DNA of 64,000 nt from an uncultured Gemmatimonadales bacterium (lineage in GTDB: Bacteria > Gemmatimonadota > Gemmatimonadetes > Longimicrobiales > RSA9), in contig CAWFKH010000001.1 of the NCBI GenBank assembly GCA_963816355.1, forward strand, positions 10,981 to 74,980. Direction: 5' to 3'. A program made the position numbers and the translations under genes. The notes below the pieces were generated by a model. The model had not been told where the DNA came from. It saw only the letters and a program-made list of their open reading frames with translations, and ran no database searches. Below are positions 32,484 through 53,445 of the stretch, piece by piece (the stretch's first letter is position 1; each line of letters starts with the position of its first letter).

Positions 32484-33206
32484 ATGCACACGTTCGCCTC
32501 GATCCTCGCCGGCGGCCTTGCCGACGACCTGCAGCGGCACCCGCTGCTGGCCCTCGGCACGCTCTTCGGCGCCGGCGTGCTGACCAGCCTCACGCCGTGC
32601 ATCTACCCGATGATCCCGATCACCATCGGCGTCATCGGCGGGAGCGCGGCCGCGGACCGCACACGCCGCCGCACCGTCCTGCTCACGCTCACCTACGCCG
32701 CCGGGCTCGCGCTCCTCTACGCGCTGCTCGGGCTGCTCGCCGGGCTGACCGGATCCCTCTTCGGCACCATCAGCGCCAACCCGTGGGCGCGCTTCGCCAC
32801 CGCCAACCTGCTCCTCCTCTTCGGCCTGGCGATGCTCGACGTGTTCCCCCTCGCCGCGCCCGCCCGCCTCGTCGCCTGGGCCGGCCGCCTCGGCGGCGGC
32901 TCCTTCCCCGCCGTCTTCCTGCTCGGCGCCACATCCGGCCTCGTCGCCGCGCCCTGCGGCGCGCCCGCGTTCGCCGCCGTCCTCACCTGGGTCGCCGGAC
33001 AGGGGAGCCCCGCGCTCGGATTCGTGTATCTCTTCGTGTTCTCGCTCGGGATGACCGCGCTGCTCATCGTCGCCGGCATCTTCTCCGGCTCGCTCGCGCG
33101 CCTGCCGCGCGCCGGCCGCTGGACCCTCTGGGTCAAGCGGATCGCCGGCGTCGTCCTGATCGGGATGGCGGAATACTACTTCATTCAGATGGGAATGGTA
33201 CTGTGA
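32484..33206 (+). CDS. ccdA: Cytochrome c biogenesis / thiol-disulfide electron transporter CcdA (DsbD core)
   Basis: Same frame as track ORF 31569..33206; ATG at 32484. The two conserved Cys motifs are LTPCIYPMIP and VAAPCGAP. Six TM helices. Confidence 0.85.
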   Translation: MHTFASILAGGLADDLQRHPLLALGTLFGAGVLTSLTPCIYPMIPITIGVIGGSAAADRTRRRTVLLTLTYAAGLALLYALLGLLAGLTGSLFGTISANPWARFATANLLLLFGLAMLDVFPLAAPARLVAWAGRLGGGSFPAVFLLGATSGLVAAPCGAPAFAAVLTWVAGQGSPALGFVYLFVFSLGMTALLIVAGIFSGSLARLPRAGRWTLWVKRIAGVVLIGMAEYYFIQMGMVL

Positions 33207-33820
33207 TCGGATCCAGAATCGACAGGCCCGAATCGACCGGGACGTCGCCCGAATCGACCGGGACGTCGCCCGAATCGATCGGGACGTCGCCCGAATCGAC
33301 GCGCCGCCTCGCCGGCGCCGCGCGCCTCGCGCTCGGCGCGCTCCTCGCCGCCGCCTTCACCGCCGCGCCGGCCGCGCTGCGCGCCCAGGACATCGGCCTC
33401 GACGTCGGCACCGCCCCGCCGGCCGTCACCATCGAGGACCTGCAGGGCAACGCCGTCGACCTCGGCGCCTACGTCGGCAAGCGGCCCGTCCTCCTCGAGT
33501 TCTGGGCCACCTGGTGCCCCATCTGCAAGGCGCTCGCGCCGCGCATCGAGGCCGCCCACCGCCGCTTCGGCGACCGCGTCGACTTCCTCGTCGTCGCCGT
33601 CGCCGTCAACGAGACGCCGCGCTCGATCCGCCGCCACCTGGCGAAGAACCCGGTGCCCGGCACGGTGCTGTGGGACGTCGACGGCCGCGCCACGCGCGCC
33701 TTCGACGCCCCCACCACCTCCTACGTCGTCGTGCTCGACCGCGCCGGCCGCGTCAGCTACACGGGCAGCGGCAGCGACCAGGACCTGGAGGGCGCGCTGG
33801 CGAAGGTCGCCGGCGGCTGA
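33203..33820 (+). CDS. TlpA/ResA-like periplasmic thioredoxin (thiol:disulfide oxidoreductase)
   Basis: GTG at 33203 overlaps the ccdA stop (GTGA), and there is no other in-frame start before the signal anchor. Reads VIGSRIDR-PESTGTS-PESTGTS-PESIGTS-PEST-RRLAGAARLALGALLAAAF, then LLEFWATWCPICKALAP (WCxxC). Confidence 0.85.
   Translation: MIGSRIDRPESTGTSPESTGTSPESIGTSPESTRRLAGAARLALGALLAAAFTAAPAALRAQDIGLDVGTAPPAVTIEDLQGNAVDLGAYVGKRPVLLEFWATWCPICKALAPRIEAAHRRFGDRVDFLVVAVAVNETPRSIRRHLAKNPVPGTVLWDVDGRATRAFDAPTTSYVVVLDRAGRVSYTGSGSDQDLEGALAKVAGG
33227..33300 (+). repeat. 21-bp in-frame tandem repeat (3.5 copies) inside the tlpA-like gene
   Basis: cccgaatcgaccgggacgtcg at 33227, 33248 and 33269 (one mismatch in the third), then a partial fourth copy. 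Encodes PESTGTS heptads. Confidence 0.9.
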
Positions 33821-33865: not shown

Positions 33866-34489
33866 TCAGCCGCCGCCCGCGCTGTCCGGCGGCACGAGCC
33901 GATCGAGCGCCGCACCCAGCTCCTTGTACGCGGTCGGATCGATCTCGCGGAACGGCGTCGCCGTGTAGGCGATCTTCCCGTCCGGCCCCACCACATACAG
34001 GTTGCGGTTCGTGAGGTCCGGCCGCTGCGGGAAGACGGCGCCGTACGCGCGGCCGACCACCGCGCCGCTGTCGCTCGCCATGAGGAAGGGGAACTCGTCG
34101 TCGCGGGCCCACGACGCGAGATCGGCGGGCGAGTCCGTGCTGATCGCGATGAGCACGATCCCGTGGCCGTCGTGGAAGAGCTGCGCGTACTGATCACGGT
34201 ACGCGTGCATTTGGATCGTTCAGCCCTTCGTCCGCGCGCGCACGAAGAAGGACAGCACGACCGTCTTCCCCTTGTAGTCGCTGAGCCGCACCGGCTCCGC
34301 CAGCACCCCCCAGCGCGTCGCCCCCGGCATGCTGAAGTCCGGCGCGACGTCGCCCGCCTGCAGCGGCTTCACGTCCACCTTCGCCGGCGCGGCTCCGCCC
34401 TGCTGCGCCAGCGCCGGCGACGGCGCGCCCAGCGCCGCCGCGACGCCTCCGGCCGCCAGCCAACCGAGCAGCTTCGCTCTCCCTCTCAT
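33866..34489 (-). CDS. Secreted AhpC/TSA (Bcp/PrxQ-like) peroxiredoxin with in-frame UGA (34222..34220) at the peroxidatic position; probable selenoprotein
   Basis: Track ORFs 34220..34648 and 33866..34210 share one frame and are separated only by TGA ACG ATC CAA. ATG at 34489 follows AGGAGGAA. Signal MRGRAKLLGWLAAGGVAAALGAPSPALA, then GDVAPDFSMPG...KGKTVVLSFFVRARTKG-U-TIQMHAYRDQYAQLF...IAISTDS. Confidence 0.7.
34182..34209 (-). promoter_or_regulatory. SECIS-like stem-loop 11 nt downstream of the in-frame UGA
   Basis: mRNA UG-(AC)-CGCGUAC [CGUGAUCA] GUACGCG-CA: 7 contiguous bp plus 2 bp after a 2-nt bulge, with an 8-nt loop containing GU. Confidence 0.45.
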
Positions 34490-34613
34490 CGCATTCCTCC
34501 TGTGACGTTCGGCCCTCGCGCGGCCGAGCGGCCGCGCGAGAAAGTTCGGTCCGCGCCCAACATACGCGCCCTCGCCGGCACCCGCGAACCGCGCCCGCGA
34601 GACGCGACTCGCC

Positions 34614-35858
34614 TCACGCCACGCCGCCGTCGCGCGCCTCCTGCGCAATCCGCCCGCCGCCCCCGGGGTTCCCCTCCTCCTCCAGCTCGCCTCGCTGCGC
34701 TTCCTCGGGCGGCACCGCCACGCGCCGCGCGACGAGCACGTCAGTCGAGGAATGCACGACGATCGACGCGGCGATCACGACGGCGGCGAGCTGGAACACC
34801 TTCCCGGCCTGCTCGGCGCCGCTGCGCAGGACGAGGATCGCGAAGACGACGGAGGCGAACCCCTTCGGTCCGAACCACGCGGCGACGAGCTTCTCCTTGC
34901 GCGAGAGGCGGCTGCCCAGGAGCGCAATGCCGATCGCCAGCGGCCGCGCGACCACCAGCGCGAGCCCCACGAAGGCCAGCTCCGCCAGGCCGAAACCCTG
35001 AAAGAGCCGCCCCGCGAGCAGCGTCCCGAAGAGCAGCACGCCGGCGAACTTGAGCAGGTCCGCGATCCCCTCGCCGAACTCCCGGAACGCCTTCGAGAAC
35101 CGACCGCCGGTCGAGCTGAGCGTGGCCCCCGCCGCGAACGCGGCCAGGAACTCGTTGGCGTGCAGCAGCCCGGCCGTCGCGTAGACGATCATCGCCACCG
35201 CGACCGCCACGAAGCGCTGGTACGCGTCGCTCACGCCGAGGAAGCGGAAGCCGGTGACGCGCACGGCGCACCACGCGATCGCGACGCCGACGGCGAGACC
35301 CGCCGCGACCGAGCCGGCGAGCCGGAACGCGAGCGAGCTCGTGTCGTAGGTGGCCAGGATGCCGAGCACGATCGGCAGCGCCAGGCCGTCGTTCAGCCCG
35401 CTCTCCACGTTCAGCAGGTGGCGCAGCCGCCATGGCACCTCCGCCCGCTGCACGAGCGCCGCCGCGAAGACCGGGTCCGTCGGCGAGAGGACGGCGCCCA
35501 GGAGGAACGCTTCCCGCCAGCGCACTCCGACCACCACGTGCGCCGCCAGCGCCGTGAGGCCCAGCGTCAGCGGCATGCCGACCAGCAGCGCGCGACCCGG
35601 CGCCCGCCAGCCGCGCCGCAGGTCGTCCAGCCCGGTGCGCGTGCCGTCCGTGAAGAGGACGCTGAAGAGGACGATCTGCGCCAGGTAGCGCACCGACGCG
35701 GCGTCCGCCCTCACCCGCACCAGGCCGAAGCCGCCGCCGCCCACCAGCCAGCCCGCCACGAGGAAGACCACCGCCGAGGAGACGATGCTCCGCCGCGAGT
35801 AGTCCGAGACGATCGCGGCAAGGAAGAGGGCCAGCGCGAATGCGAGTACGGCGGTCAT
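34614..35858 (-). CDS. Na+/H+ (cation:proton) antiporter, CPA1 family
   Basis: Track ORF of 414 aa, polytopic. Motifs LFTDGTRTG, GAVLSPTDPV, VESGLNDGLALP. Confidence 0.85.
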   Translation of the reverse strand: MTAVLAFALALFLAAIVSDYSRRSIVSSAVVFLVAGWLVGGGGFGLVRVRADAASVRYLAQIVLFSVLFTDGTRTGLDDLRRGWRAPGRALLVGMPLTLGLTALAAHVVVGVRWREAFLLGAVLSPTDPVFAAALVQRAEVPWRLRHLLNVESGLNDGLALPIVLGILATYDTSSLAFRLAGSVAAGLAVGVAIAWCAVRVTGFRFLGVSDAYQRFVAVAVAMIVYATAGLLHANEFLAAFAAGATLSSTGGRFSKAFREFGEGIADLLKFAGVLLFGTLLAGRLFQGFGLAELAFVGLALVVARPLAIGIALLGSRLSRKEKLVAAWFGPKGFASVVFAILVLRSGAEQAGKVFQLAAVVIAASIVVHSSTDVLVARRVAVPPEEAQRGELEEEGNPGGGGRIAQEARDGGVA

Positions 35859-35941: not shown

Positions 35942-36517
35942 CTACCCGCCGCCCGCCAGCCGCGCGAAGTGCGCCTTGCGCAGCTTCGCGATCTTCGGCT
36001 CGATCACCAGCCGGCAGTACGACTGCTCCGGGTTGCGCCGGAAGTACTCGCGGTGGTACGCCTCCGCCGCATAAAACGCCTCCAGCGGTGCGACCTCCGT
36101 CACGATCGGCCCCCGCCACGTGCCCGCCCGCTCCAGCTCCGCGATCGCCGACTCCGCCGCCTCGCGCTGCTCCGGCGTGTGGTAGAAGATCGCCGAGCGG
36201 TACTGCGTGCCGACATCCGCCCCTTGCCGGTTCGGCGTCGTCGGGTCGTGGATCGTGAAGAAGACGTCGAGCAGGTCGCGGTAGCTCACCACCGCCGCGT
36301 CGAACCGCACCTGGACCGCCTCCGCGTGCCCGGTCCCGCCGCCGCACACCTGCCGGTACGTCGGGTTCGCCACCGTGCCGCCGGTGTAGCCGGATACCAC
36401 CGACTCCACCCCGCGGATCAGCTCGAACGCCGCTTCCAGGCACCAGAAGCAGCCGCCCGCCAGCGTCGCCGTCTCCAGCGCCCGCTCCTCCACTCGCCCT
36501 CCCTCGCTCCCGTCCAT
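35942..36517 (-). CDS. msrA: Peptide methionine (S)-sulfoxide reductase
   Basis: This is the 3' part of track ORF 35942..38332. ATG at 36517 follows AAGGGGAG. Motifs GGCFWCLEA, GYTGG...NPTYRQVC, GHAEAVQV, YHREYF. Confidence 0.9.
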   Translation of the reverse strand: MDGSEGGRVEERALETATLAGGCFWCLEAAFELIRGVESVVSGYTGGTVANPTYRQVCGGGTGHAEAVQVRFDAAVVSYRDLLDVFFTIHDPTTPNRQGADVGTQYRSAIFYHTPEQREAAESAIAELERAGTWRGPIVTEVAPLEAFYAAEAYHREYFRRNPEQSYCRLVIEPKIAKLRKAHFARLAGGG

Positions 36518-47852: not shown

Positions 47853-48381
47853 CGGGCGCGCGCCCGCGCGTCGGCGCCTCCGGTCCCTGCTCCCGCGGGG
47901 GGCGTCCCGCCTTTCCGGCGCTCCGCCCCGGGGCGGCGTGGCCGCCACCGAACCGGCGCCCGCCCCGCCGCGGCACGCCGCCGGCCGGAAGATCCCATCC
48001 CTACTTGACATGGCGCCCCTCCCTCTTCACCTTTAGCGTCGATGGCGTGTCGTTCGCGGTGACGACCCGCCTCAACCGGAAAAGAGAATCAACCCGTTAT
48101 CCTGTTCGGCTGTGCGACGTCAGCACCGCGGCCCCGGTGGGTCAGGCCCGGTCGCTCGACGGCCCCTCGCCTCTCCCCCGAGCGCGCCAGCACGCTTGCA
48201 GTGTACCACCCGGGTACGCCCAGTCCCGGACCAGTGCCGCGCGCGCGACCACAGTTATTTGAAACTATGGATTAGCCCCCTCGCTTGCGAGAGCGGAGCC
48301 ACCAGCGGAGTCCTTCAGCGGAGCGCCGCAGCCCACCCTAGCGGATCCGGGCTGACGCAACCCGAAAGGAGGTGAGCTGAG

Positions 48382-48456
48382 TTGACGGCTTTCTTTGCCG
48401 CCCTTTTCGCTGGTTTCGCGAAGCTTCTTATGGCGGGTGTCACCATCATTCATTAA
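48382..48456 (+). CDS. Candidate 24-aa hydrophobic peptide (TTG start)
   Basis: AGGAGG (48367-48372) lies 9 nt upstream of TTG 48382. Encodes (M)TAFFAALFAGFAKLLMAGVTIIH-TAA, 33 nt upstream of ATG 48490. It has no homology support and could be chance. Confidence 0.3.
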   Translation: MTAFFAALFAGFAKLLMAGVTIIH

Positions 48457-48595
48457 GTGAGTGAGGGGGCTTTTCTTTCTTAAGACATCATGCCAAAGAA
48501 GATCGCCCTACTCTTTGCTGCCGTAGTTGTCCTCGGCGCAGCATCGTTCTGGCCGTTGCCGCTTGCCGACATTGCGGCGCCTAAGCGGCACGGCG

Positions 48596-49825
48596 ATGGG
48601 CGGCTTGTTGACGCTGACTGTCTTGGGGGTGCTGGCCGAGTTCCTTCCAGTTCAGTACAGTGTCGAAGGGCGCGAAGCGTCATCGTCCATCTCCTTCATC
48701 CCAATGTTCGTCATCGGACTGTCGTTCCATCCGACGACGACCGTATTGGCTACGGCGCTGATAATTGGGACAGCCTCTACGCTTGGCCATAAGCTCCCTG
48801 CTTGGAAGACGATATTCAATGTTTGCCAAGTCGCTCTAGCTGTCCGCCTTGGTTCAGAGTTATACTATTATCTGTCCACTTCAACTCTGCCGATTCTACA
48901 TTATGATGTAGTAGCACTTGCAGGTCTTTCGCTTACGTTCTTTATCACAAATACAGTACTCGTCTCCTTTTTCTATTCCATAGACCAATCGACTCCGTTT
49001 CTTCCAACGCTCAAACGAATTGCCGGACCGGGTGGTTCCAATCTCTATTATGACCTTCTAGTTAGCCCTCTAGCTCTGCTCGTATCATACGTATATCGAA
49101 GCAGTGGCTTGAGTGGCGTACTATTGTTAGTATTGCCACTTTACATCCTGCGCCATTCTTACGTCGCCATGCTGCAGCTCCAACAGGCGAATCGCGCCCT
49201 CCTGAAAGTATTGATCAAGGCCATTGACACGCGCGACCCTTATACGTCTGGTCATTCTCTCCGTGTATCACTCTTAGCCCGAGCGATAGCGGAGGACATG
49301 GGCGTTCGGGGGAGACGTCTCGATGATGTCGAGACGGCTGCTCTGTTGCACGACATTGGAAAGGTCGACGGAATATACGCGGAGTTGATTCGGAAGCCGC
49401 ACGCTTTGTCCGCAGATGAAGTCAAAGTTATTCGAACACACGCGACAAAGGGAGCGGACTTCGTTGGCGGGCTAAGGACGTACAGCGACGGCATAGTTCT
49501 GAGTATCAGGCATCATCACGAAAAATATGATGGTTCAGGGTACCCAAATGGTCTTCGCGGCTCTGAGATCCCACTTGCGGCACGCATAATTCAGATTTCC
49601 GATAGCATTGACGCGATGCTTTCTGACAGGCCTTACCGATCTGCCCTGTCTCTTGAGCAGGTTCACACGGAGCTTAGGCGGTGCGCGGGAAGTCAGTTTG
49701 ATCCAGGAATCGTGGACAACATGCTTGAGAGGGGATCCCTCACACGAATGCTGCCGACCCTCCGGCTTCATGGGGGCAAGACTGCAGCGGTTCTCCCGCG
49801 CATTGAAGCGTCAGCGGCTGTCTGA
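48596..49825 (+). CDS. Membrane-anchored HD-GYP domain protein (probable c-di-GMP phosphodiesterase)
   Basis: Track ORF 48527..49825. Multi-TM N-terminal domain, then HD-GYP catalytic motifs YTSGHSLRV, LLHDIGK, HHHEKYDGSGYPNGL, ISDSIDAM. The start is uncertain: ATG 48596 (MGGLLTLTVLG), or ATG 48490 in another frame (MPKKIALLFAAVVVLGAASFWPL), which would need a frameshift near 48590. Confidence 0.85.
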   Translation: MGGLLTLTVLGVLAEFLPVQYSVEGREASSSISFIPMFVIGLSFHPTTTVLATALIIGTASTLGHKLPAWKTIFNVCQVALAVRLGSELYYYLSTSTLPILHYDVVALAGLSLTFFITNTVLVSFFYSIDQSTPFLPTLKRIAGPGGSNLYYDLLVSPLALLVSYVYRSSGLSGVLLLVLPLYILRHSYVAMLQLQQANRALLKVLIKAIDTRDPYTSGHSLRVSLLARAIAEDMGVRGRRLDDVETAALLHDIGKVDGIYAELIRKPHALSADEVKVIRTHATKGADFVGGLRTYSDGIVLSIRHHHEKYDGSGYPNGLRGSEIPLAARIIQISDSIDAMLSDRPYRSALSLEQVHTELRRCAGSQFDPGIVDNMLERGSLTRMLPTLRLHGGKTAAVLPRIEASAAV

Positions 49826-49849
49826 TTCAGCTTACTTATAGGAGGCGCC

Positions 49850-50053
49850 GTGCAGACTAGACATTGTCCCTCCTGTGGCTCCGATCACTTGGAGCGCGCC
49901 ACTTGCGGGCCGGCTGAGTTGCCGCTTGCGGACGGGAGTGCAATTCGCCTGCTAGTACTTGGATGCTTGAATTGTGGGCACGTTAGTCTATGGATCCCAG
50001 AGGCCGACGATGGAAGTGGCGCAAAGTCCTTGGGGAGTCAGTCATTCTTATAG
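49850..50053 (+). CDS. Small zinc-ribbon protein (CxxC...CxxC)
   Basis: Track ORF of 67 aa. GTG start 4 nt after AGGAGG (49840-49845). Motifs CPSCGS ... CLNCGHVSLWIP. Confidence 0.6.
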   Translation: MQTRHCPSCGSDHLERATCGPAELPLADGSAIRLLVLGCLNCGHVSLWIPEADDGSGAKSLGSQSFL

Positions 50054-50471
50054 GCCTAGCGCAGCAGTTGTCAATGTCCTAGAAGATACGCTATCTGCTG
50101 GTGGTAAGTGCTTACCCGCTCAGATTGAGTACTTCCCGTCGAGCCGCTCCGGGGGTCAACTAGCAGACAGTCTATAAGTACTTCATCCAAAGAAGAATAG
50201 ACGGGTCCCCAAATGGTCGGCCCGAGCGCGGCTCGGTGCAGATCGATCGTCCGGCACGGCGTTCCTCCACGAGGATCCGGAGCCAGTGCTACTTCAGGGC
50301 GGACGTACAAGGTTGCGAGACTTCGTCCGGTCGATGAAGCCGCGCCTTTATCCGCGGCGTGAGGGAGCGTGTCGAGACGCTTCCCGGACAGCAGACGAGA
50401 TCGACGTCTCGACTTCAGCGGCTGCCGTTGCCGGGCGGTGAGACCGGAGCCGTTCGTGCGTTTTCCCTTTC

Positions 50472-50500
50472 TTGACAGGAGCCCCGGGAGGCGGGAGATT
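50472..50500 (+). promoter_or_regulatory. Candidate sigma70-type promoter for the RHH-nuclease-methylase operon
   Basis: TTGACA (50472-50477), 17-nt spacer, GAGATT (50495-50500). Downstream direct repeats GACGCTGTCG (50504) and CGACTGTCG (50524) lie before the ATG at 50543. Confidence 0.4.
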
Positions 50501-50542
50501 TGCAGACGCTGTCGCCCCTTGTTCCGACTGTCGAAATTGTAG

Positions 50543-50752
50543 ATGCCCACCGGCAAACGCCGCGTTGCGATCAACCTGCCTTACGGCGAATACGAGGAAA
50601 TGGCCGCTATCGCGGACGAGCACAACGTCTCACTCGCGTGGCTAGGCGGCCAATTCATGGAACGCTACCGCGAGGAATCTTTGCAGCTTCCCCTTCCGCT
50701 TCGGACCAACAGAAGTTTAGAACGAGGACCGGGAGCACATGCCGCGCAGTGA
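50543..50752 (+). CDS. Ribbon-helix-helix (CopG/Arc-type) DNA-binding protein
   Basis: Track ORF of 69 aa. KRRVAINLPYGEYEEMAAIADEHNVSLAWLGGQFMERY fits a beta-strand / helix / helix RHH pattern. It overlaps the next gene by 14 nt. Confidence 0.7.
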   Translation: MPTGKRRVAINLPYGEYEEMAAIADEHNVSLAWLGGQFMERYREESLQLPLPLRTNRSLERGPGAHAAQ

Positions 50753-52109
50753 TCTCCCCTTTGGCAGCGAGTTTTCGCCCGACCAGATTGATCTGGCCAC
50801 GCTACTGGATCTCGCGCACCAGCACGGCGAGGACTGGAAAGGATTCGAGGCCGCCGTACGGGCGCGCTATTTCGAGAATTACAAGACGTCGGACTACAAC
50901 AAGGACAAGCTCGCCAATAACGCGAAGCTCTCGTTGCGCGCCTATGGCCTGATCGGCGCGAAGGATGCCACGCTGACGGAGGCCGGATTAGCTCTCCACG
51001 CTTTGCATCAGGATGAGAGGCTCCTGCTAGATGCGTTTGCCAAGCACATTTTAAAGCACTGCCAGGGTATGAACTTCGTGCAGTGCCTCCTCGATATGCA
51101 GGCGGCGGGCGAGAGGATCACCCTCTTGAGCCTCCGCCGTGGTCTTGAGGAGCGGGGGCTTTCCGTGCCGCGCGGCGGGAAGCACATGAGCACGTTGCGG
51201 CTCTGGCTGGACCGGGCCGGTGTCATCGTAAGCGGCTACCGCGTGGATCAGGCCCGTCTCAACGATATCCTTGGCGTTAAAGTGGAGGAATTCGAGGCTC
51301 TGGCAAGCTTTTCGGGCGAGCAGAAAGCCTTTCTGAAGACGCTCGCGAACATGGAGGGTGGCCGGCCGCATCTGTCGAACGATATCGAGCGGCTTGCCAC
51401 GGCGACCTACGGCATCACGTTCAACGAGAAGAACCTGCCCAAGCAGGTTTTGTATCCGCTGGAGAAGACGGGCTACATCGCGCTTGAACGCGGCACACAA
51501 GAGCCCGGGCGCGGCGCTAAGCCTTTTTTGGTGACGGCAACCGAGAAGCTCGATGCCGACCTGATTGCACCGCTCATTGCGCAGATGGAGCGCCAGATCC
51601 AGGCTGATATCCGGCCGCTGCTTCGCAAGCCGCTTTCAGAGATCTTGGAGGAGCTGACGGAGGAGGACGCGCACACACGCGGCCTTGCCCTCGAGGCTCT
51701 CGCCTTCAAGCTCATGAGGCTCGTCGACCTCACCTATGTCGCGACCCGTCTTCGAGGCAGCCAGACCGGAGGGGCGGAAGTCGATCTGATCTTTGAAGGC
51801 GCCCGTCTGGTGTTCTCCCGCTGGCAGATCCAATGCAAGAACACGCGGAGCGTGTCGCTGGACGATGTTGCCAAGGAAGTGGGGCTCACGCACTTCCTGA
51901 AAAGCAACGTGATCGTGATGGTCTCGACCGGGACGGTCGGCCCGGAGGCGCGCCGCTACGCCAACAAAATCATGCGGGACTCTAACCTGTGCATCGTCAT
52001 GGTGGACGGTACCGACCTCGAGCTAATCGAGGAACGGCCGGCCGGAATTGTCGATGTCTTCAGCCGCGAGGCCCGTCATGCGATGGACCTAAAAAGGCTC
52101 GAACTATAA
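50739..52109 (+). CDS. Restriction endonuclease-like protein: winged-helix-like N-terminal region plus C-terminal Mrr-type PD-(D/E)xK nuclease domain
   Basis: Track ORF of 456 aa. The C-terminus GLALEALAFKLMRL...GGAEVDLIFEG...WQIQCKNTRSVSLDDVAKEVG matches the Mrr catalytic pattern (GxD...D...IQxK). The roughly 330 N-terminal aa are unassigned. Confidence 0.8.
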   Translation: MPRSDLPFGSEFSPDQIDLATLLDLAHQHGEDWKGFEAAVRARYFENYKTSDYNKDKLANNAKLSLRAYGLIGAKDATLTEAGLALHALHQDERLLLDAFAKHILKHCQGMNFVQCLLDMQAAGERITLLSLRRGLEERGLSVPRGGKHMSTLRLWLDRAGVIVSGYRVDQARLNDILGVKVEEFEALASFSGEQKAFLKTLANMEGGRPHLSNDIERLATATYGITFNEKNLPKQVLYPLEKTGYIALERGTQEPGRGAKPFLVTATEKLDADLIAPLIAQMERQIQADIRPLLRKPLSEILEELTEEDAHTRGLALEALAFKLMRLVDLTYVATRLRGSQTGGAEVDLIFEGARLVFSRWQIQCKNTRSVSLDDVAKEVGLTHFLKSNVIVMVSTGTVGPEARRYANKIMRDSNLCIVMVDGTDLELIEERPAGIVDVFSREARHAMDLKRLEL

Positions 52110-52125
52110 AGGGAAGGAACAACGG

Positions 52126-53445
52126 ATGCCGCAGAACGGCGTGAACAGGGCTAAGCCGTTCCACACAACCGCGTTCGGGCGAATCATCTGCGGCGATAGC
52201 TTGCAGGCGCTGTCTGCCCGTGCAGAAGGCTCGGTTAATCTCATCATGACCAGCCCGCCCTTCGCGCTCGTGCGAAAGAAGGACTATGGAAACGTCGAAG
52301 CCAACCAGTATATAGACTGGTTTCGCCCGTTCGCGGGGGAGTTCAAGCGCGTCCTCACCAATAATGGCAGCCTCGTTATTGACATCGGCGGGTCCTGGAA
52401 GAGGGGCTATCCGACCCGAAACCTGTATCACTTCAAGCTGCTTGTTATGTTGTGCGAGGAGTTCGGGTTTCATCTTGCGCAGGATTTCTACTGGTGGAAT
52501 CCGTCAAAGCTCCCGACGCCAGCAGAGTGGGTAAATATCCGCCGCATCCGGGTTAAGGATGCGATCAACACAATCTGGTGGTTATCGAAAACGCCTTGGC
52601 CGAAGGCCAGCAACCGGCGAGTCCTACAGCCTTACAGCGACAGTATGCAGGATCTTCTCGAAAGAGGCTATAAGGCGAAGAAGCGCCCATCCGGGCACGA
52701 CATCAGTGAGAAATTTAGCATCAACAATGGAGCGGCGATCCCGCCCAACCTGATCGCCATACCCAACACGGAAAGCAACAGCTTTTATCTGCGCTACTGT
52801 GAGGAGAACGGCCTAAAGCCCCACCCAGCGCGGTTTCCAACGGATCTACCAGAGTATTTCATTCGGATGCTGACAGACCCGGGCGACTTGGTCGTGGATC
52901 CGTTCGCAGGAAGTTGCGTCACCGGCGAAGTGTCGGAGCGCCTTCAGAGAGAGTGGGAGTGCATTGAGCTTCTGCCGGCGTATTGCGAGGCTGCCCTTGG
53001 ACGTTTTATTCGCCCTGCCGAAGAAACGGCGCGACCTGACCGGAACCCCGGCGACCCTTCCAACTACTATCGCATGCCGCATCCGGGCATTCTTGTGGAA
53101 CGGCAACACCGGCGCGCCTCTTCACGAGGATGGTGGGAGGAGGCGCCGCCTCGAGTCGAAGGCGAAGGGAAAGAACGGCAAGGCGAGCACGGTCCCCCCC
53201 CCCCCCCCCCCCCCTCTCCCCCCCCTCCGTGCCTCTCCCCCCCCCCCAGGCTCGCTGCGGAAAGGCGGCTCATGTCCAGCGCCCACCCGCCACCGCGTAC
53301 CATGTCGCCCGCGCCGGGAAGCGACGCGGCCCAGCATGATACAGCCCCGGCGCGCGCCTGCGACCGGCGCATCCCGGCCGGACCGAGCGGCCCGGGTGAC
53401 CACCCCGTCGCTGGGCGCATCGACGTCCGATGGCTGCCCACGTAG
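52126..53445 (+). CDS. Beta-class DNA methyltransferase (N4-cytosine/N6-adenine, SPPF type); C-terminal ~130 aa is probably read-through
   Basis: Track ORF of 439 aa. Motif IV LIMTSPPFALVRKKDYGN comes before motif I DLVVDPFAGSCVTG, which is the beta-class order. The recognisable domain ends near AALGRF (about 53010). After that the ORF runs through the poly-C tract (PPPPPPPSPPPP) into GC-rich sequence. Confidence 0.8.
   Translation: MPQNGVNRAKPFHTTAFGRIICGDSLQALSARAEGSVNLIMTSPPFALVRKKDYGNVEANQYIDWFRPFAGEFKRVLTNNGSLVIDIGGSWKRGYPTRNLYHFKLLVMLCEEFGFHLAQDFYWWNPSKLPTPAEWVNIRRIRVKDAINTIWWLSKTPWPKASNRRVLQPYSDSMQDLLERGYKAKKRPSGHDISEKFSINNGAAIPPNLIAIPNTESNSFYLRYCEENGLKPHPARFPTDLPEYFIRMLTDPGDLVVDPFAGSCVTGEVSERLQREWECIELLPAYCEAALGRFIRPAEETARPDRNPGDPSNYYRMPHPGILVERQHRRASSRGWWEEAPPRVEGEGKERQGEHGPPPPPPPSPPPPCLSPPPRLAAERRLMSSAHPPPRTMSPAPGSDAAQHDTAPARACDRRIPAGPSGPGDHPVAGRIDVRWLPT
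53194..53247 (+). repeat. Homopolymeric C tracts: C21, TCT, C8, TCCGTGCCTCT, C11
   Basis: Direct count: C run 53194-53214 (21 nt), 53218-53225 (8 nt), 53237-53247 (11 nt). It coincides with the switch from island GC to host GC. Confidence 0.95.

What the first reader, a model, noticed from the sequence alone, without database searches (positions are those of the whole stretch)
33866..34489. In-frame UGA at the peroxidatic-Cys position of a secreted peroxiredoxin, with a SECIS-like hairpin: probable selenoprotein missed by ORF calling
Seen directly:
- Track ORFs 34220..34648 and 33866..34210 (minus strand) are in the same frame and are separated only by TGA ACG ATC CAA.
- Joined from the ATG at 34489 (AGGAGGAA upstream), they give one complete AhpC/TSA protein.
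- It has a Sec-type signal peptide (MRGRAKLLGWLAAGGVAAALGAPSPALA) and then ...LQAGDVAPDFSMPG...VRLSDYKGKTVVLSFFVRARTKG-[UGA]-TIQMHAYRDQYAQLF...VLIAISTDSPADL.

Established knowledge: against the canonical active-site block (E. coli Bcp: [28 protein letters not shown]), the UGA aligns exactly with the peroxidatic Cys. Sec-containing peroxiredoxins exist in some bacteria.

Also seen: 11 nt after the UGA the mRNA can fold as UG-(AC)-CGCGUAC / CGUGAUCA / GUACGCG-CA (34209..34182). That is the spacing and size expected of a bacterial SECIS.

Inference:
- The protein is exported, which is uncommon for bacterial selenoproteins.
- It lies convergent to ccdA and a TlpA-like thioredoxin, which could deliver reducing power to it in the periplasm.
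Basis: partly seen in the sequence, partly recalled or inferred. Interest (0 to 1): 0.72.

Follow-up and report, generated by a model that had tools for sequence, protein, structure and literature searches.

The report
Secreted selenocysteine peroxiredoxin, split by annotators
This is one intact gene for an exported antioxidant enzyme (a peroxiredoxin) whose catalytic cysteine is replaced by selenocysteine, encoded by an in-frame UGA with a conserved RNA hairpin behind it; about 160 related soil Gemmatimonadota sequences share the design and gene callers routinely cut it into two fragments, but selenocysteine peroxiredoxins are already a known protein family.

Summary
On the minus strand, ATG 34489 to stop 33866 is one AhpC/TSA (BCP/PrxQ-type) peroxiredoxin gene. 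It is interrupted only by TGA 34222..34220, which aligns exactly with the peroxidatic Cys.

It is not a pseudogene or a sequencing error:
- The same TGA is present in all 164 related Gemmatimonadota loci of this form that I fetched, 80 of them from different species genomes.
- Both halves are under purifying selection.
- A 7-bp hairpin starts 14 nt after the UGA. Its synonymous sites are frozen (pS 0.03 against about 0.53 in the flanks). Its closing pair covaries: U-A 61, C-G 52, G-C 7, A-U 1, unpaired 2.
- Cys-form relatives (TGC) do not show this codon freezing.

The protein has a signal peptide and no cysteine, so it is a "1-Sec" enzyme. In 89% of informative loci it lies convergent to ccdA plus a TlpA-like thioredoxin, which resembles the ScsB-TlpA-PprX envelope peroxide pathway of Caulobacter. 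The universal Pro of PxxxTxxC is replaced by Phe/Tyr in Sec forms (Val here).

I could not locate selA/B/C/D in this genome: none lie in the window or the fetched flanks, although published MAG tables report them in Gemmatimonadota.

Verdict: a real selenoprotein gene and a new member of the known Sec-peroxiredoxin (TxxU) family. Interest is moderate.

The parts
33866..34489 (-). Complete coding sequence of the selenoprotein: 89 codons, UGA (Sec90), 117 codons, stop TGA 33868..33866. It is a BCP/PrxQ-type peroxiredoxin precursor of 207 residues.
   Evidence: Pfam AhpC-TSA 6.9e-28 spanning the junction; PDB alignments; AlphaFold2 model, pLDDT 84.8; best fold matches are BCP, Bcp4 and Bcp1, with TM-score normalised to the target 0.80-0.85.
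34495..34500 (-). Shine-Dalgarno-like GGAGGA, 5 nt upstream of ATG 34489.
   Evidence: Read directly.
34406..34489 (-). Sec-type signal peptide MRGRAKLLGWLAAGGVAAALGAPSPALA, with predicted cleavage after ALA and before QQ.
   Evidence: By inspection: a basic n-region, a hydrophobic core and an AxA site. Equivalent N-terminal hydrophobic segments ending in A-x-A/Q occur in relatives. No dedicated signal-peptide predictor was available.
34220..34243 (-). Active-site block V83-R-A-R-T87-K-G-U90. It corresponds to PxxxTxxC of peroxiredoxins, with Val in place of Pro and UGA in place of the Cys codon.
   Evidence: Thr at -3 is kept. Position -7 is Pro in 99 of 99 Cys-form proteins. In the 164 Sec forms it is Phe in 125, Tyr in 37, Ser in 1 and Val in 1 (this window).
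34220..34222 (-). In-frame UGA, the predicted selenocysteine codon 90.
   Evidence: It is conserved as TGA in 164 of 164 loci of this form. It is the only internal TGA among 37 window genes, 32 of which end in TGA.
34184..34205 (-). SECIS-like hairpin: a 7-bp stem (34205..34199 with 34190..34184) and an 8-nt loop CGUGAUCA (34198..34191). A G-C pair may form inside the loop.
   Evidence: Six stem pairs and G26-C31 are invariant in 123 distinct sequences. The closing pair is U-A 61, C-G 52, G-C 7, A-U 1, other 2. pS in these codons is 0.029 against 0.53-0.55 in the flanks.
34004..34006 (-). Codon for Arg162, the conserved active-site arginine of peroxiredoxins.
   Evidence: It is invariant in alignment A1. 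In the alignment to 2ywn it matches an Arg (LAKRAVFVID). That this is the family's conserved active-site Arg is from general knowledge of the family.
33203..33820 (+). TlpA-like membrane-anchored or periplasmic thioredoxin (WCPIC motif), convergent to the peroxiredoxin gene with 45 nt between the two stop codons. It is the proposed direct reductant.
   Evidence: Redoxin 7e-18, Thioredoxin 3.7e-10. The start is inferred as GTG 33203, overlapping the ccdA stop. The gene lies convergent within 3.5 kb downstream in 127 of 143 informative Sec-form loci.
32484..33206 (+). ccdA, a DsbD-family transmembrane electron carrier with two conserved Cys (TPCIYP and APCGAP).
   Evidence: DsbD_TM 6.5e-44. It is found beside the TlpA-like gene in the large majority of related loci where the flank allows (the tblastn also covered CcdA in all loci).

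Best explanation
The region encodes one functional, exported selenoprotein: a BCP/PrxQ-type peroxiredoxin whose peroxidatic residue is selenocysteine.

Proposed mechanism, with shown and inferred steps marked:
1. Decoding. UGA 34222..34220 is decoded as Sec by SelB and Sec-tRNA(Sec). They are recruited by the mRNA hairpin 34205..34184, which begins 14 nt downstream of the UGA. The conservation and covariation are shown; binding by SelB is inferred.
2. Export. The precursor is exported through the Sec translocon by its N-terminal signal peptide (inferred from sequence).
3. Catalysis. Outside the cytoplasm the selenolate reduces H2O2 or organic hydroperoxides, with help from Thr87 and Arg162. 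The residues are shown; the activity is inferred from the family.
4. Recycling. The mature protein has no cysteine, so the selenenic acid cannot be resolved within the protein. It is most likely reduced by the neighbouring TlpA-like thioredoxin. That protein is in turn kept reduced by CcdA, using cytoplasmic thioredoxin electrons. This is inferred from conserved gene neighbourhood and from the Caulobacter ScsB-TlpA-PprX precedent.

Gene callers split the gene into a fragment of about 75-90 aa and a 114-aa 'redoxin domain-containing protein'.
For: - The TGA sits on the peroxidatic Cys in PDB and homologue alignments.
- TGA is present in 164 of 164 related loci, 151 of them distinct sequences. 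They include 80 different Gemmatimonadota species genomes from Gemmatimonadales and Longimicrobiales.
- pN/pS is 0.27 upstream and 0.38 downstream of the TGA, so both halves are maintained as coding sequence.
- Hairpin codons +6..+11 are fixed as GCG TAC CGT GAT CAG TAC in 145-151 of 151 sequences, although these genomes vary synonymous codons freely elsewhere.
- The closing pair covaries through four Watson-Crick types and is paired in 121 of 123 sequences. No shuffle out of 500 reaches the observed covariation score. RNAalifold independently predicts the same 7-bp stem.
- The seven Cys-form loci use TGC. They vary these codons (CGG/CGC, GAC, TAT, GCC) and some of the encoded residues.
- TGA is the ordinary stop codon here, ending 32 of 37 genes.
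- The catalytic Thr and Arg are retained, and the model has a peroxiredoxin fold.
- 104 of 136 reconstructed proteins contain no Cys at all.
- TlpA and CcdA lie convergent downstream in 127 of 143 informative loci. They also lie next to 3 of 7 Cys forms.
- The literature supports each element. Sec-peroxiredoxins with a TxxU motif are an established bacterial selenoprotein family (PMC1088965, PMC1794560, PMC13188914). An exported BCP/PrxQ peroxiredoxin reduced through TlpA and a DsbD-family protein has been shown in Caulobacter (PMC3322552).
- Sec genes are reported in the phylum. selA and selD occur in 86% of Gemmatimonadota MAGs of one data set (PMC8938466, source data of Fig. 3a). SelA and SelB COGs occur in both Gemmatimonadetes bins of another (PMC5649159, Table S4).
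Against: - No tRNA-Sec, selA, selB or selD was found in the window or in about 1.5 Mb of related flanks. This comes from ARAGORN, Rfam, and tblastn with E. coli SelA/B/D queries that I validated against the PDB. The rest of this genome could not be reached.
- Only one stem pair varies, so the covariation evidence rests on a single pair plus frozen synonymous sites.
- The hairpin arms lie in codons A-Y...Q-Y-A, which protein function also conserves. Partial hairpins of 4-6 bp therefore persist in Cys forms.
- The single-sequence folding energy is not exceptional.
- The Pro of the otherwise near-universal PxxxTxxC motif is missing, so peroxidase activity is not guaranteed.
- Export, the TlpA electron route and selenium incorporation are all untested.
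Confidence: 0.87

Rival explanations
1. Pseudogene or sequencing error: a TGC/TGT-to-TGA mutation, or a miscalled base, inactivated an ordinary Cys peroxiredoxin.
For: Full-length Cys homologues exist at 50-70% identity. No Sec machinery is seen in the window.
Against: The identical TGA is present in 164 independent loci, including 80 different species genomes and many metagenomes. There is purifying selection on both sides of it. A co-conserved, covarying hairpin follows it.
Confidence: 0.01
2. A naturally split gene: two separate polypeptides, an exported N-terminal piece of 61 aa after signal-peptide cleavage and a cytoplasmic 114-aa piece starting at ATG 34210. They would function without any residue at the catalytic position.
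For: ATG follows the TGA after three codons in 150 of 151 distinct Sec-form sequences (CTG in one). Public annotation calls the two pieces as separate genes.
Against: - The Met is equally invariant in the Cys forms, so it is a structural residue and not a start signal.
- No Shine-Dalgarno motif precedes it: the sequence is GGCUGAACGAUCCAAAUG.
- The second piece would lack a signal peptide and would be separated from the first by the membrane.
- The catalytic residue would be missing while Thr87 and Arg162 stay conserved.
- Frozen synonymous sites and a covarying pair inside the second piece are not explained.
Confidence: 0.03
3. UGA recoding without selenocysteine: hairpin-stimulated read-through by a near-cognate or suppressor tRNA inserting Trp, Cys or Gly, or regulated termination that tunes enzyme level. 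It would be independent of SelB.
For: Sec machinery was not demonstrated in this genome. The hairpin alone cannot tell SelB binding from a generic read-through stimulator.
Against: - The recoded position is exactly the redox-active Cys, the signature of Sec/Cys pairs in all known bacterial selenoprotein families (PMC1088965, PMC1794560).
- The hairpin has the position expected of a bacterial SECIS, immediately downstream of the UGA inside the coding region (PMC1088965). It also has the expected size and loop G, with 21 nt from the UGA to the loop. The numerical criteria are from my memory of the bSECISearch model.
- Trp or Gly at this site would kill catalysis.
- sel genes are reported in most Gemmatimonadota MAGs examined.
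- TGA is the normal stop codon here.
Confidence: 0.04

Closest known systems
Selenocysteine-containing peroxiredoxins: the 'Prx' selenoprotein family with a T/SxxU motif. It includes PrxU of Eubacterium acidaminophilum and the many Sargasso Sea, GOS, deltaproteobacterial and clostridial members.
   Same: Same Pfam family (PF00578). Sec replaces the peroxidatic Cys in a TxxU motif. A SECIS hairpin lies directly downstream of the UGA within the coding region. Cys-form orthologues coexist (PMC1088965, PMC1794560, PMC13188914).
   Different: - It is not a PrxU equivalog: NCBIfam NF040737 scores 54 bits against a cutoff of 270.
- It is found in a different phylum, Gemmatimonadota, mostly from soil and groundwater.
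- It carries a signal peptide.
- It has no other Cys.
- The Pro of the motif that the 2026 review gives as PxxxTxxU is replaced by Phe or Tyr (Val here).
ScsB-TlpA-PprX cell-envelope peroxide reduction pathway of Caulobacter crescentus (PMC3322552).
   Same: An exported BCP/PrxQ-type peroxiredoxin with a signal sequence. A TlpA-type periplasmic thioredoxin is its reductant. A DsbD-superfamily membrane protein imports the electrons.
   Different: - Here the membrane component is the minimal CcdA, not ScsB.
- The peroxiredoxin uses Sec and has no resolving Cys, whereas PprX is a Cys enzyme with a resolving Cys.
- The link here is inferred only from conserved convergent gene order.
- Homology to PprX itself was not tested, because I did not have its sequence.
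E. coli Bcp and archaeal Bcp1/Bcp4 (the BCP/PrxQ subfamily).
   Same: These are the best sequence and fold matches: 2ywn 3.5e-13, and 9a4d_B, 3hjp and 3drn with TM-score normalised to the target 0.80-0.85. The Thr and Arg are shared, and the catalytic residue sits just before helix alpha2.
   Different: - It scores below the Bcp equivalog cutoff: NF006960 gives 62 bits against 140.
- It is secreted.
- It has Sec instead of Cys.
- It has no Cys at +5.
- It lacks the motif Pro.
Bacterial SECIS elements, with E. coli fdhF as the prototype and the bSECISearch consensus as the general model.
   Same: A stem-loop inside the coding sequence immediately 3' of the UGA, with a small apical loop that has G as its second nucleotide. 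The location and the conserved loop G are stated in PMC1088965. The loop starts 21 nt after the UGA, within the 16-37 nt I recall from the bSECISearch model.
   Different: - The loop sequence is CGUGAUCA rather than GGUC.
- No bulged U is evident.
- The core stem starts 14 nt rather than 11 nt after the UGA.
- Rfam has no bacterial SECIS model that matched, so membership could not be scored formally.

Membership tests
Peroxiredoxin (AhpC/TSA, BCP/PrxQ subfamily) | Significant match to the AhpC/TSA domain, and a thioredoxin-like Prx fold | tested here: met
   Pfam PF00578 6.9e-28, 97.5 bits against a cutoff of 26. The AlphaFold2 model has pLDDT 84.8. The top Foldseek PDB hits are BCP, Bcp4, Bcp1 and Prx1, with probability 1.00.
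Peroxiredoxin (AhpC/TSA, BCP/PrxQ subfamily) | Peroxidatic Cys (or Sec) in a TxxC motif at the start of helix alpha2 | tested here: met
   The motif is T87-K-G-U90. The UGA column aligns with Cp of 2ywn and 2cx3 and with Cys of 99 homologues. Residue 90 lies just before model helix 92-99.
Peroxiredoxin (AhpC/TSA, BCP/PrxQ subfamily) | Conserved active-site Arg | tested here: met
   Arg162 is invariant in alignment A1. In the 2ywn alignment it matches an Arg, which from general knowledge of the family is the conserved active-site Arg.
Peroxiredoxin (AhpC/TSA, BCP/PrxQ subfamily) | Pro of the PxxxTxxC motif (called 'absolutely conserved' in PMC3322552) | tested here: not met
   The window has Val83. 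Of the 164 Sec forms, 162 have Phe or Tyr. All 99 Cys-form proteins and all 7 Cys-form loci keep Pro.
Peroxiredoxin (AhpC/TSA, BCP/PrxQ subfamily) | Thiol- or selenol-dependent peroxidase activity | not testable with these tools
   This needs the purified protein, or a U90C variant, assayed with the TlpA-like protein or thioredoxin.
Bacterial selenoprotein (SelB/SECIS-dependent) | An in-frame UGA that aligns with Cys in homologues and is conserved among orthologues | tested here: met
   TGA in 164 of 164 loci of this form, and Cys (TGC) in the sister forms.
Bacterial selenoprotein (SelB/SECIS-dependent) | A stem-loop immediately downstream of the UGA, under selection as RNA | tested here: met
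   A 7-bp stem at nt +18..+39. One pair covaries (61, 52, 7 and 1 across the four Watson-Crick types; 2 of 123 unpaired) and the other pairs are invariant. Synonymous divergence is 0.029 against about 0.53.
Bacterial selenoprotein (SelB/SECIS-dependent) | tRNA-Sec, selA, selB and selD in the same genome | not testable with these tools
   None lie in the 64-kb window or in the flanks of about 165 related loci. The rest of the genome could not be retrieved. Phylum-level presence is reported in PMC8938466 and PMC5649159.
Bacterial selenoprotein (SelB/SECIS-dependent) | Selenium actually incorporated at the UGA position | not testable with these tools
   This requires 75Se labelling or mass spectrometry.
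PrxU (NCBIfam NF040737, Sec-peroxiredoxin equivalog) | Score above the curated equivalog cutoff | tested here: not met
   54.1 bits against a cutoff of 270.
Bcp (NCBIfam NF006960, thioredoxin-dependent thiol peroxidase equivalog) | Score above the curated equivalog cutoff | tested here: not met
   62.3 bits against a cutoff of 140.
Envelope peroxide-reduction module (DsbD-family carrier + TlpA + exported Prx, as in Caulobacter) | An exported Prx, with a TlpA-like thioredoxin and a DsbD-family membrane carrier genetically linked to it | tested here: met
   The signal peptide was identified by inspection. ccdA and the TlpA-like gene lie convergent to the prx gene in the window and in 127 of 143 informative loci.
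Envelope peroxide-reduction module (DsbD-family carrier + TlpA + exported Prx, as in Caulobacter) | Electron transfer CcdA -> TlpA -> Prx demonstrated | not testable with these tools
   This needs biochemical or genetic redox-state assays.

The most novel reading that the evidence does not exclude
A phylum-wide extracytoplasmic selenoperoxidase module. A Sec-translocon-exported '1-Sec' peroxiredoxin is recycled by a dedicated CcdA-TlpA electron relay. Adopting selenocysteine went hand in hand with re-engineering the otherwise universal active-site motif, Pro to Phe/Tyr at -7. The Sec form far outnumbers the Cys form in the metagenome contigs fetched here: 77 against 2 in the metagenome scan. 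If true, it would be the first envelope peroxide defence built on selenium. It would also be a natural experiment on what Sec demands of a Prx active site.
Probability: 0.35. Interest if true: 0.6.

Novelty: new member of a known kind. Interest (0 to 1): 0.4.

Why it matters
- Annotation. A gene present in at least 80 Gemmatimonadota species and in many soil metagenomes is systematically mis-annotated as two fragments, for example as a 114-aa 'redoxin domain-containing protein'. Its antioxidant function and the selenium dependence of these abundant soil bacteria are therefore invisible in current annotation.
- Biology. It points to a selenium-based peroxide defence outside the cytoplasm, fed by CcdA and TlpA.
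- Enzymology. The strict coupling of Sec with loss of the canonical Pro gives a concrete, testable question about selenium and sulfur chemistry in peroxiredoxins.

It does not change what is known about how Sec is encoded.

Tried and rejected
- Retrieving the source contig. Look-ups for two window proteins found no record, so neither the organism's accession nor the rest of the genome could be examined. Taxonomy (Gemmatimonadota) is inferred only from the relatives.
- Searching for Sec machinery locally. ARAGORN and Rfam found nothing in the window. ARAGORN on 86 loci gave two 96-99-nt 'tRNA-???' calls (L039, L083) that looked like candidate tRNA-Sec. Neither has an Rfam match, and by inspection L083 lies in GC-rich, coding-like sequence, so I rejected both. 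tblastn with E. coli SelA, SelB and SelD found nothing in 1.57 Mb.
- Looking for other selenoprotein genes. I scanned for in-frame TGA flanked by coding-like sequence. In the window only this gene qualifies. In the loci all 24 hits are adjacent genes in the same frame.
- Thermodynamic test of the hairpin. It is not significant for the single sequence and I dropped it as evidence.
They are unsupported, being broken in 16 and 21 of 123 sequences.
- Stop-codon bias. The Sec-form genes end in TAG 65, TAA 39 and TGA 32. The neighbouring tlpA gene shows a similar mix, so I did not pursue it.
- A neighbour-joining tree of Sec and Cys forms. It suggests at least 3 Sec/Cys switches. The tree is from a short protein and is unbootstrapped, so I do not rely on it.
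- msrA, upstream at 35942..36517. It is not a conserved neighbour.
Full report
OBSERVATION

The window has 72.9% G+C. On the minus strand, ATG 34489 is preceded by GGAGGA at 34500..34495. It opens a reading frame that runs to TGA 33868..33866 and is interrupted once, by TGA 34222..34220 at codon 90.

With Cys put at codon 90 for the search, the 207-residue product matches Pfam AhpC-TSA (6.9e-28) and Redoxin (2.7e-17). Each match is a single stretch that crosses the junction. HMMER alignments to solved BCP/PrxQ peroxiredoxins put codon 90 on their peroxidatic Cys. An AlphaFold2 model (pLDDT 84.8) has a peroxiredoxin fold. Residue 90 sits just before helix 92-99, and the best PDB matches are BCP, Bcp4 and Bcp1.

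IS THE TGA REAL AND MAINTAINED?

A protein search returned about 99 full-length homologues with Cys at this column (RARTxGC-T[IV]QM.AYRDQY). It also returned 14 clusters of 113-116-aa proteins that all start at the Met four codons after the TGA. Some of these are named 'redoxin domain-containing protein [Gemmatimonadales/Gemmatimonadetes bacterium]'. Their contigs carry an upstream 74-78-aa AhpC-like ORF that ends in TGA, followed by three codons and then the called start.

Two wider scans confirmed the pattern:
- A scan of one genome per species returned 80 loci, all Gemmatimonadota (Gemmatimonadales, Longimicrobiales, Ca. Kutchimonas, bacterium HR33). All 80 have TGA at this codon.
- A metagenome scan seeded with a profile of Cys forms still returned 77 TGA loci and only 2 TGC loci.

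In total there are 164 TGA loci, 151 of them distinct sequences. Pairwise divergence shows purifying selection on both sides of the TGA: pS 0.55 and pN 0.15 upstream, pS 0.53 and pN 0.20 downstream. In the window, 32 of 37 genes end in TGA and only this gene contains an internal one. TGA is therefore the ordinary stop codon and has not been reassigned. A pseudogene, a sequencing error and a changed genetic code are all excluded.

THE HAIRPIN

Numbering the U of UGA as 1, nt 18-24 pair with nt 33-39 around the 8-nt loop CGUGAUCA. In the window this is 34205..34184.

For the single sequence the fold is unremarkable: z = -0.77 against shuffles. The comparative evidence is strong:
- In 123 distinct sequences, six stem pairs and a possible G26-C31 pair are invariant.
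- The closing pair 18-39 joins two synonymous third-codon positions 21 nt apart. It is U-A 61, C-G 52, G-C 7, A-U 1 and unpaired 2. No shuffle out of 500 reaches the observed covariation score, and sliding the 3' partners by 1-3 columns lowers pairing from 96.8% to 11-59% and the number of double-change cells from 60 to at most 4.
- RNAalifold predicts the same 7-bp stem independently.
- Codons +6..+11 (A-Y-R-D-Q-Y) are fixed as GCG TAC CGT GAT CAG TAC in 145-151 of 151 sequences. The same amino acids elsewhere in the gene use several codons.
- Synonymous divergence in those six codons is 0.029, against 0.53-0.55 in the flanks.

The seven Cys-form loci whose DNA I could fetch use TGC. They vary these codons (CGG/CGC, GAC, TAT, GCC) and some of the encoded residues, and they keep only 4-6-bp remnants of the stem.

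There is a caveat. The arms lie in A-Y...Q-Y-A codons, and that amino-acid motif is conserved in the Cys forms as well. The sequence was therefore predisposed to form a hairpin, and the covariation rests on one pair.

The element's position immediately after the UGA and its loop G fit what is described for bacterial SECIS elements (PMC1088965). The numerical bSECISearch limits I quote are from memory. Rfam has no matching model.

THE PROTEIN AND HOW IT PROBABLY WORKS

- The N-terminus MRGRAKLLGWLAAGGVAAALGAPSPALA/QQ has the features of a Sec-type signal peptide, judged by inspection. Relatives have equivalent segments.
- Thr87 and Arg162, the catalytic partners of the peroxidatic residue, are conserved.
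- The mature protein contains no cysteine, and 104 of 136 reconstructed relatives have none anywhere. There is no resolving Cys, so an external reductant is needed.
- ccdA (32484..33206) and a TlpA-like thioredoxin (WCPIC motif, ending at 33820) lie convergent to the gene, with 45 nt between the stops of the TlpA-like gene and the prx gene.
- The TlpA-like gene holds the same convergent position in 113 loci immediately downstream and in 14 more within 3.5 kb. That is 127 of 143 loci with enough flank to judge. The pair also lies next to 3 of 7 Cys-form genes.

This mirrors the experimentally shown pathway in Caulobacter, where ScsB (DsbD family) reduces TlpA, which reduces PprX. PprX is an exported BCP/PrxQ peroxiredoxin (PMC3322552).

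I therefore infer the following route. Cytoplasmic thioredoxin reduces CcdA, CcdA reduces the TlpA-like protein, and that protein reduces the Sec-peroxiredoxin, which reduces peroxide outside the cytoplasmic membrane. Shown: the anatomy, its conservation and the gene linkage. Inferred: SelB-dependent decoding, export, peroxidase activity and the electron route.

AN UNEXPECTED DETAIL

The Pro of the PxxxTxxC motif is present in all 99 Cys-form proteins and all 7 Cys-form loci. PMC3322552 calls it 'absolutely conserved', and PMC13188914 writes the motif as PxxxTxxU for Sec-peroxiredoxins. In the 164 Sec forms it is Phe in 125, Tyr in 37, Ser in 1 and Val in 1, the last being this window. The coupling of Sec with loss of Pro is complete in this sample. 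Its meaning is unknown.

SEC MACHINERY

I could not examine the rest of the genome. The local searches were all negative:
- No tRNA-Sec or sel gene lies in the window.
- None lies in about 1.5 Mb of related flanks.
- The E. coli query sequences were verified against the PDB.

Published tables give support at phylum level only:
- selA and selD were annotated in 86% of Gemmatimonadota MAGs from Challenger Deep sediments (PMC8938466, source data of Fig. 3a).
- SelA and SelB COGs are present in both Gemmatimonadetes bins of a sponge metagenome (PMC5649159, Table S4).

This remains the main gap.

COMPARISON WITH WHAT IS KNOWN

Sec-containing peroxiredoxins with a T/SxxU motif are a long-established bacterial selenoprotein family:
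- The first was PrxU of Eubacterium acidaminophilum, described in 2001.
- There were 43 such genes in the Sargasso Sea data.
- Five Cys-to-Sec conversion events were inferred in 2006.

The present protein belongs to that kind but to none of the curated equivalogs: PrxU scores 54 bits against a cutoff of 270, and Bcp scores 62 against 140. My literature searches found no paper describing selenoproteins of Gemmatimonadota. That is not proof of novelty.

I class it as a new member of a known kind. It has three variant features: export, a 1-Sec design linked to CcdA and TlpA, and Pro replaced by Phe/Tyr.

VERDICT

The feature is real and under strong selection, and annotation pipelines have missed it. 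Its mechanism is ordinary for a bacterial selenoprotein. Interest is 0.4.

Noticed in passing
window 48000-53400: A low-GC island: 52-62% G+C against 73% for the window. It encodes an HD-domain protein (48527..49825), an Mrr-like restriction endonuclease (50739..52109) and an N6/N4 DNA methylase (52126..53445). It is probably a horizontally acquired restriction-modification island.
   Followed up: partly
window 33226-33300: A 21-nt tandem repeat of 3.6 copies, 96% matching. It lies in frame within the 5' end of the TlpA-like ORF if that ORF starts at GTG 33203, which overlaps the ccdA stop in a GTGA. That reading gives a (PESTGTS)n N-terminal tail and a 205-aa protein, against 162-172 aa in relatives. 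It is a possible recent repeat expansion in the cytoplasmic tail.
   Followed up: partly
window 34241-34243 (codon 83) and loci L001-L166: The residue at the position of the canonical Pro of PxxxTxxC is Phe or Tyr in 162 of 164 Sec forms and Pro in every Cys form. The window is the only sequence with Val.
   Followed up: partly
L167:4001-4603 (Cys form P0001): Cys-form genes close to the Sec forms keep a 6-bp GCGUAC/GUACGC remnant of the hairpin. A rough neighbour-joining tree nests one large Cys clade among the Sec lineages. Together these hint at Sec-to-Cys reversion, with Pro regained.
   Followed up: partly
loci L087-L166 (metagenome scan): The scan was seeded with a profile of Cys forms, yet 77 of the 79 metagenome loci where the active-site motif was found carry TGA. 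In the metagenome contigs fetched here the Sec form is therefore much more common than the Cys form. The pattern-based sampling is not unbiased.
   Followed up: no
window 35942-36517 and 34614-35858: msrA (peptide methionine sulfoxide reductase, PMSR 1.1e-66) and a Na+/H+ exchanger lie directly upstream on the same strand as the peroxiredoxin gene. This neighbourhood is not conserved in relatives.
   Followed up: yes
L039:12057-12152 and L083:1836-1934: ARAGORN reports 96-99-nt 'tRNA-???' genes with four-base anticodons, 1.3-1.9 kb from the peroxiredoxin gene. Neither has an Rfam match. By inspection L083 lies in GC-rich, coding-like sequence. They are probably false positives and not tRNA-Sec.
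   Followed up: yes
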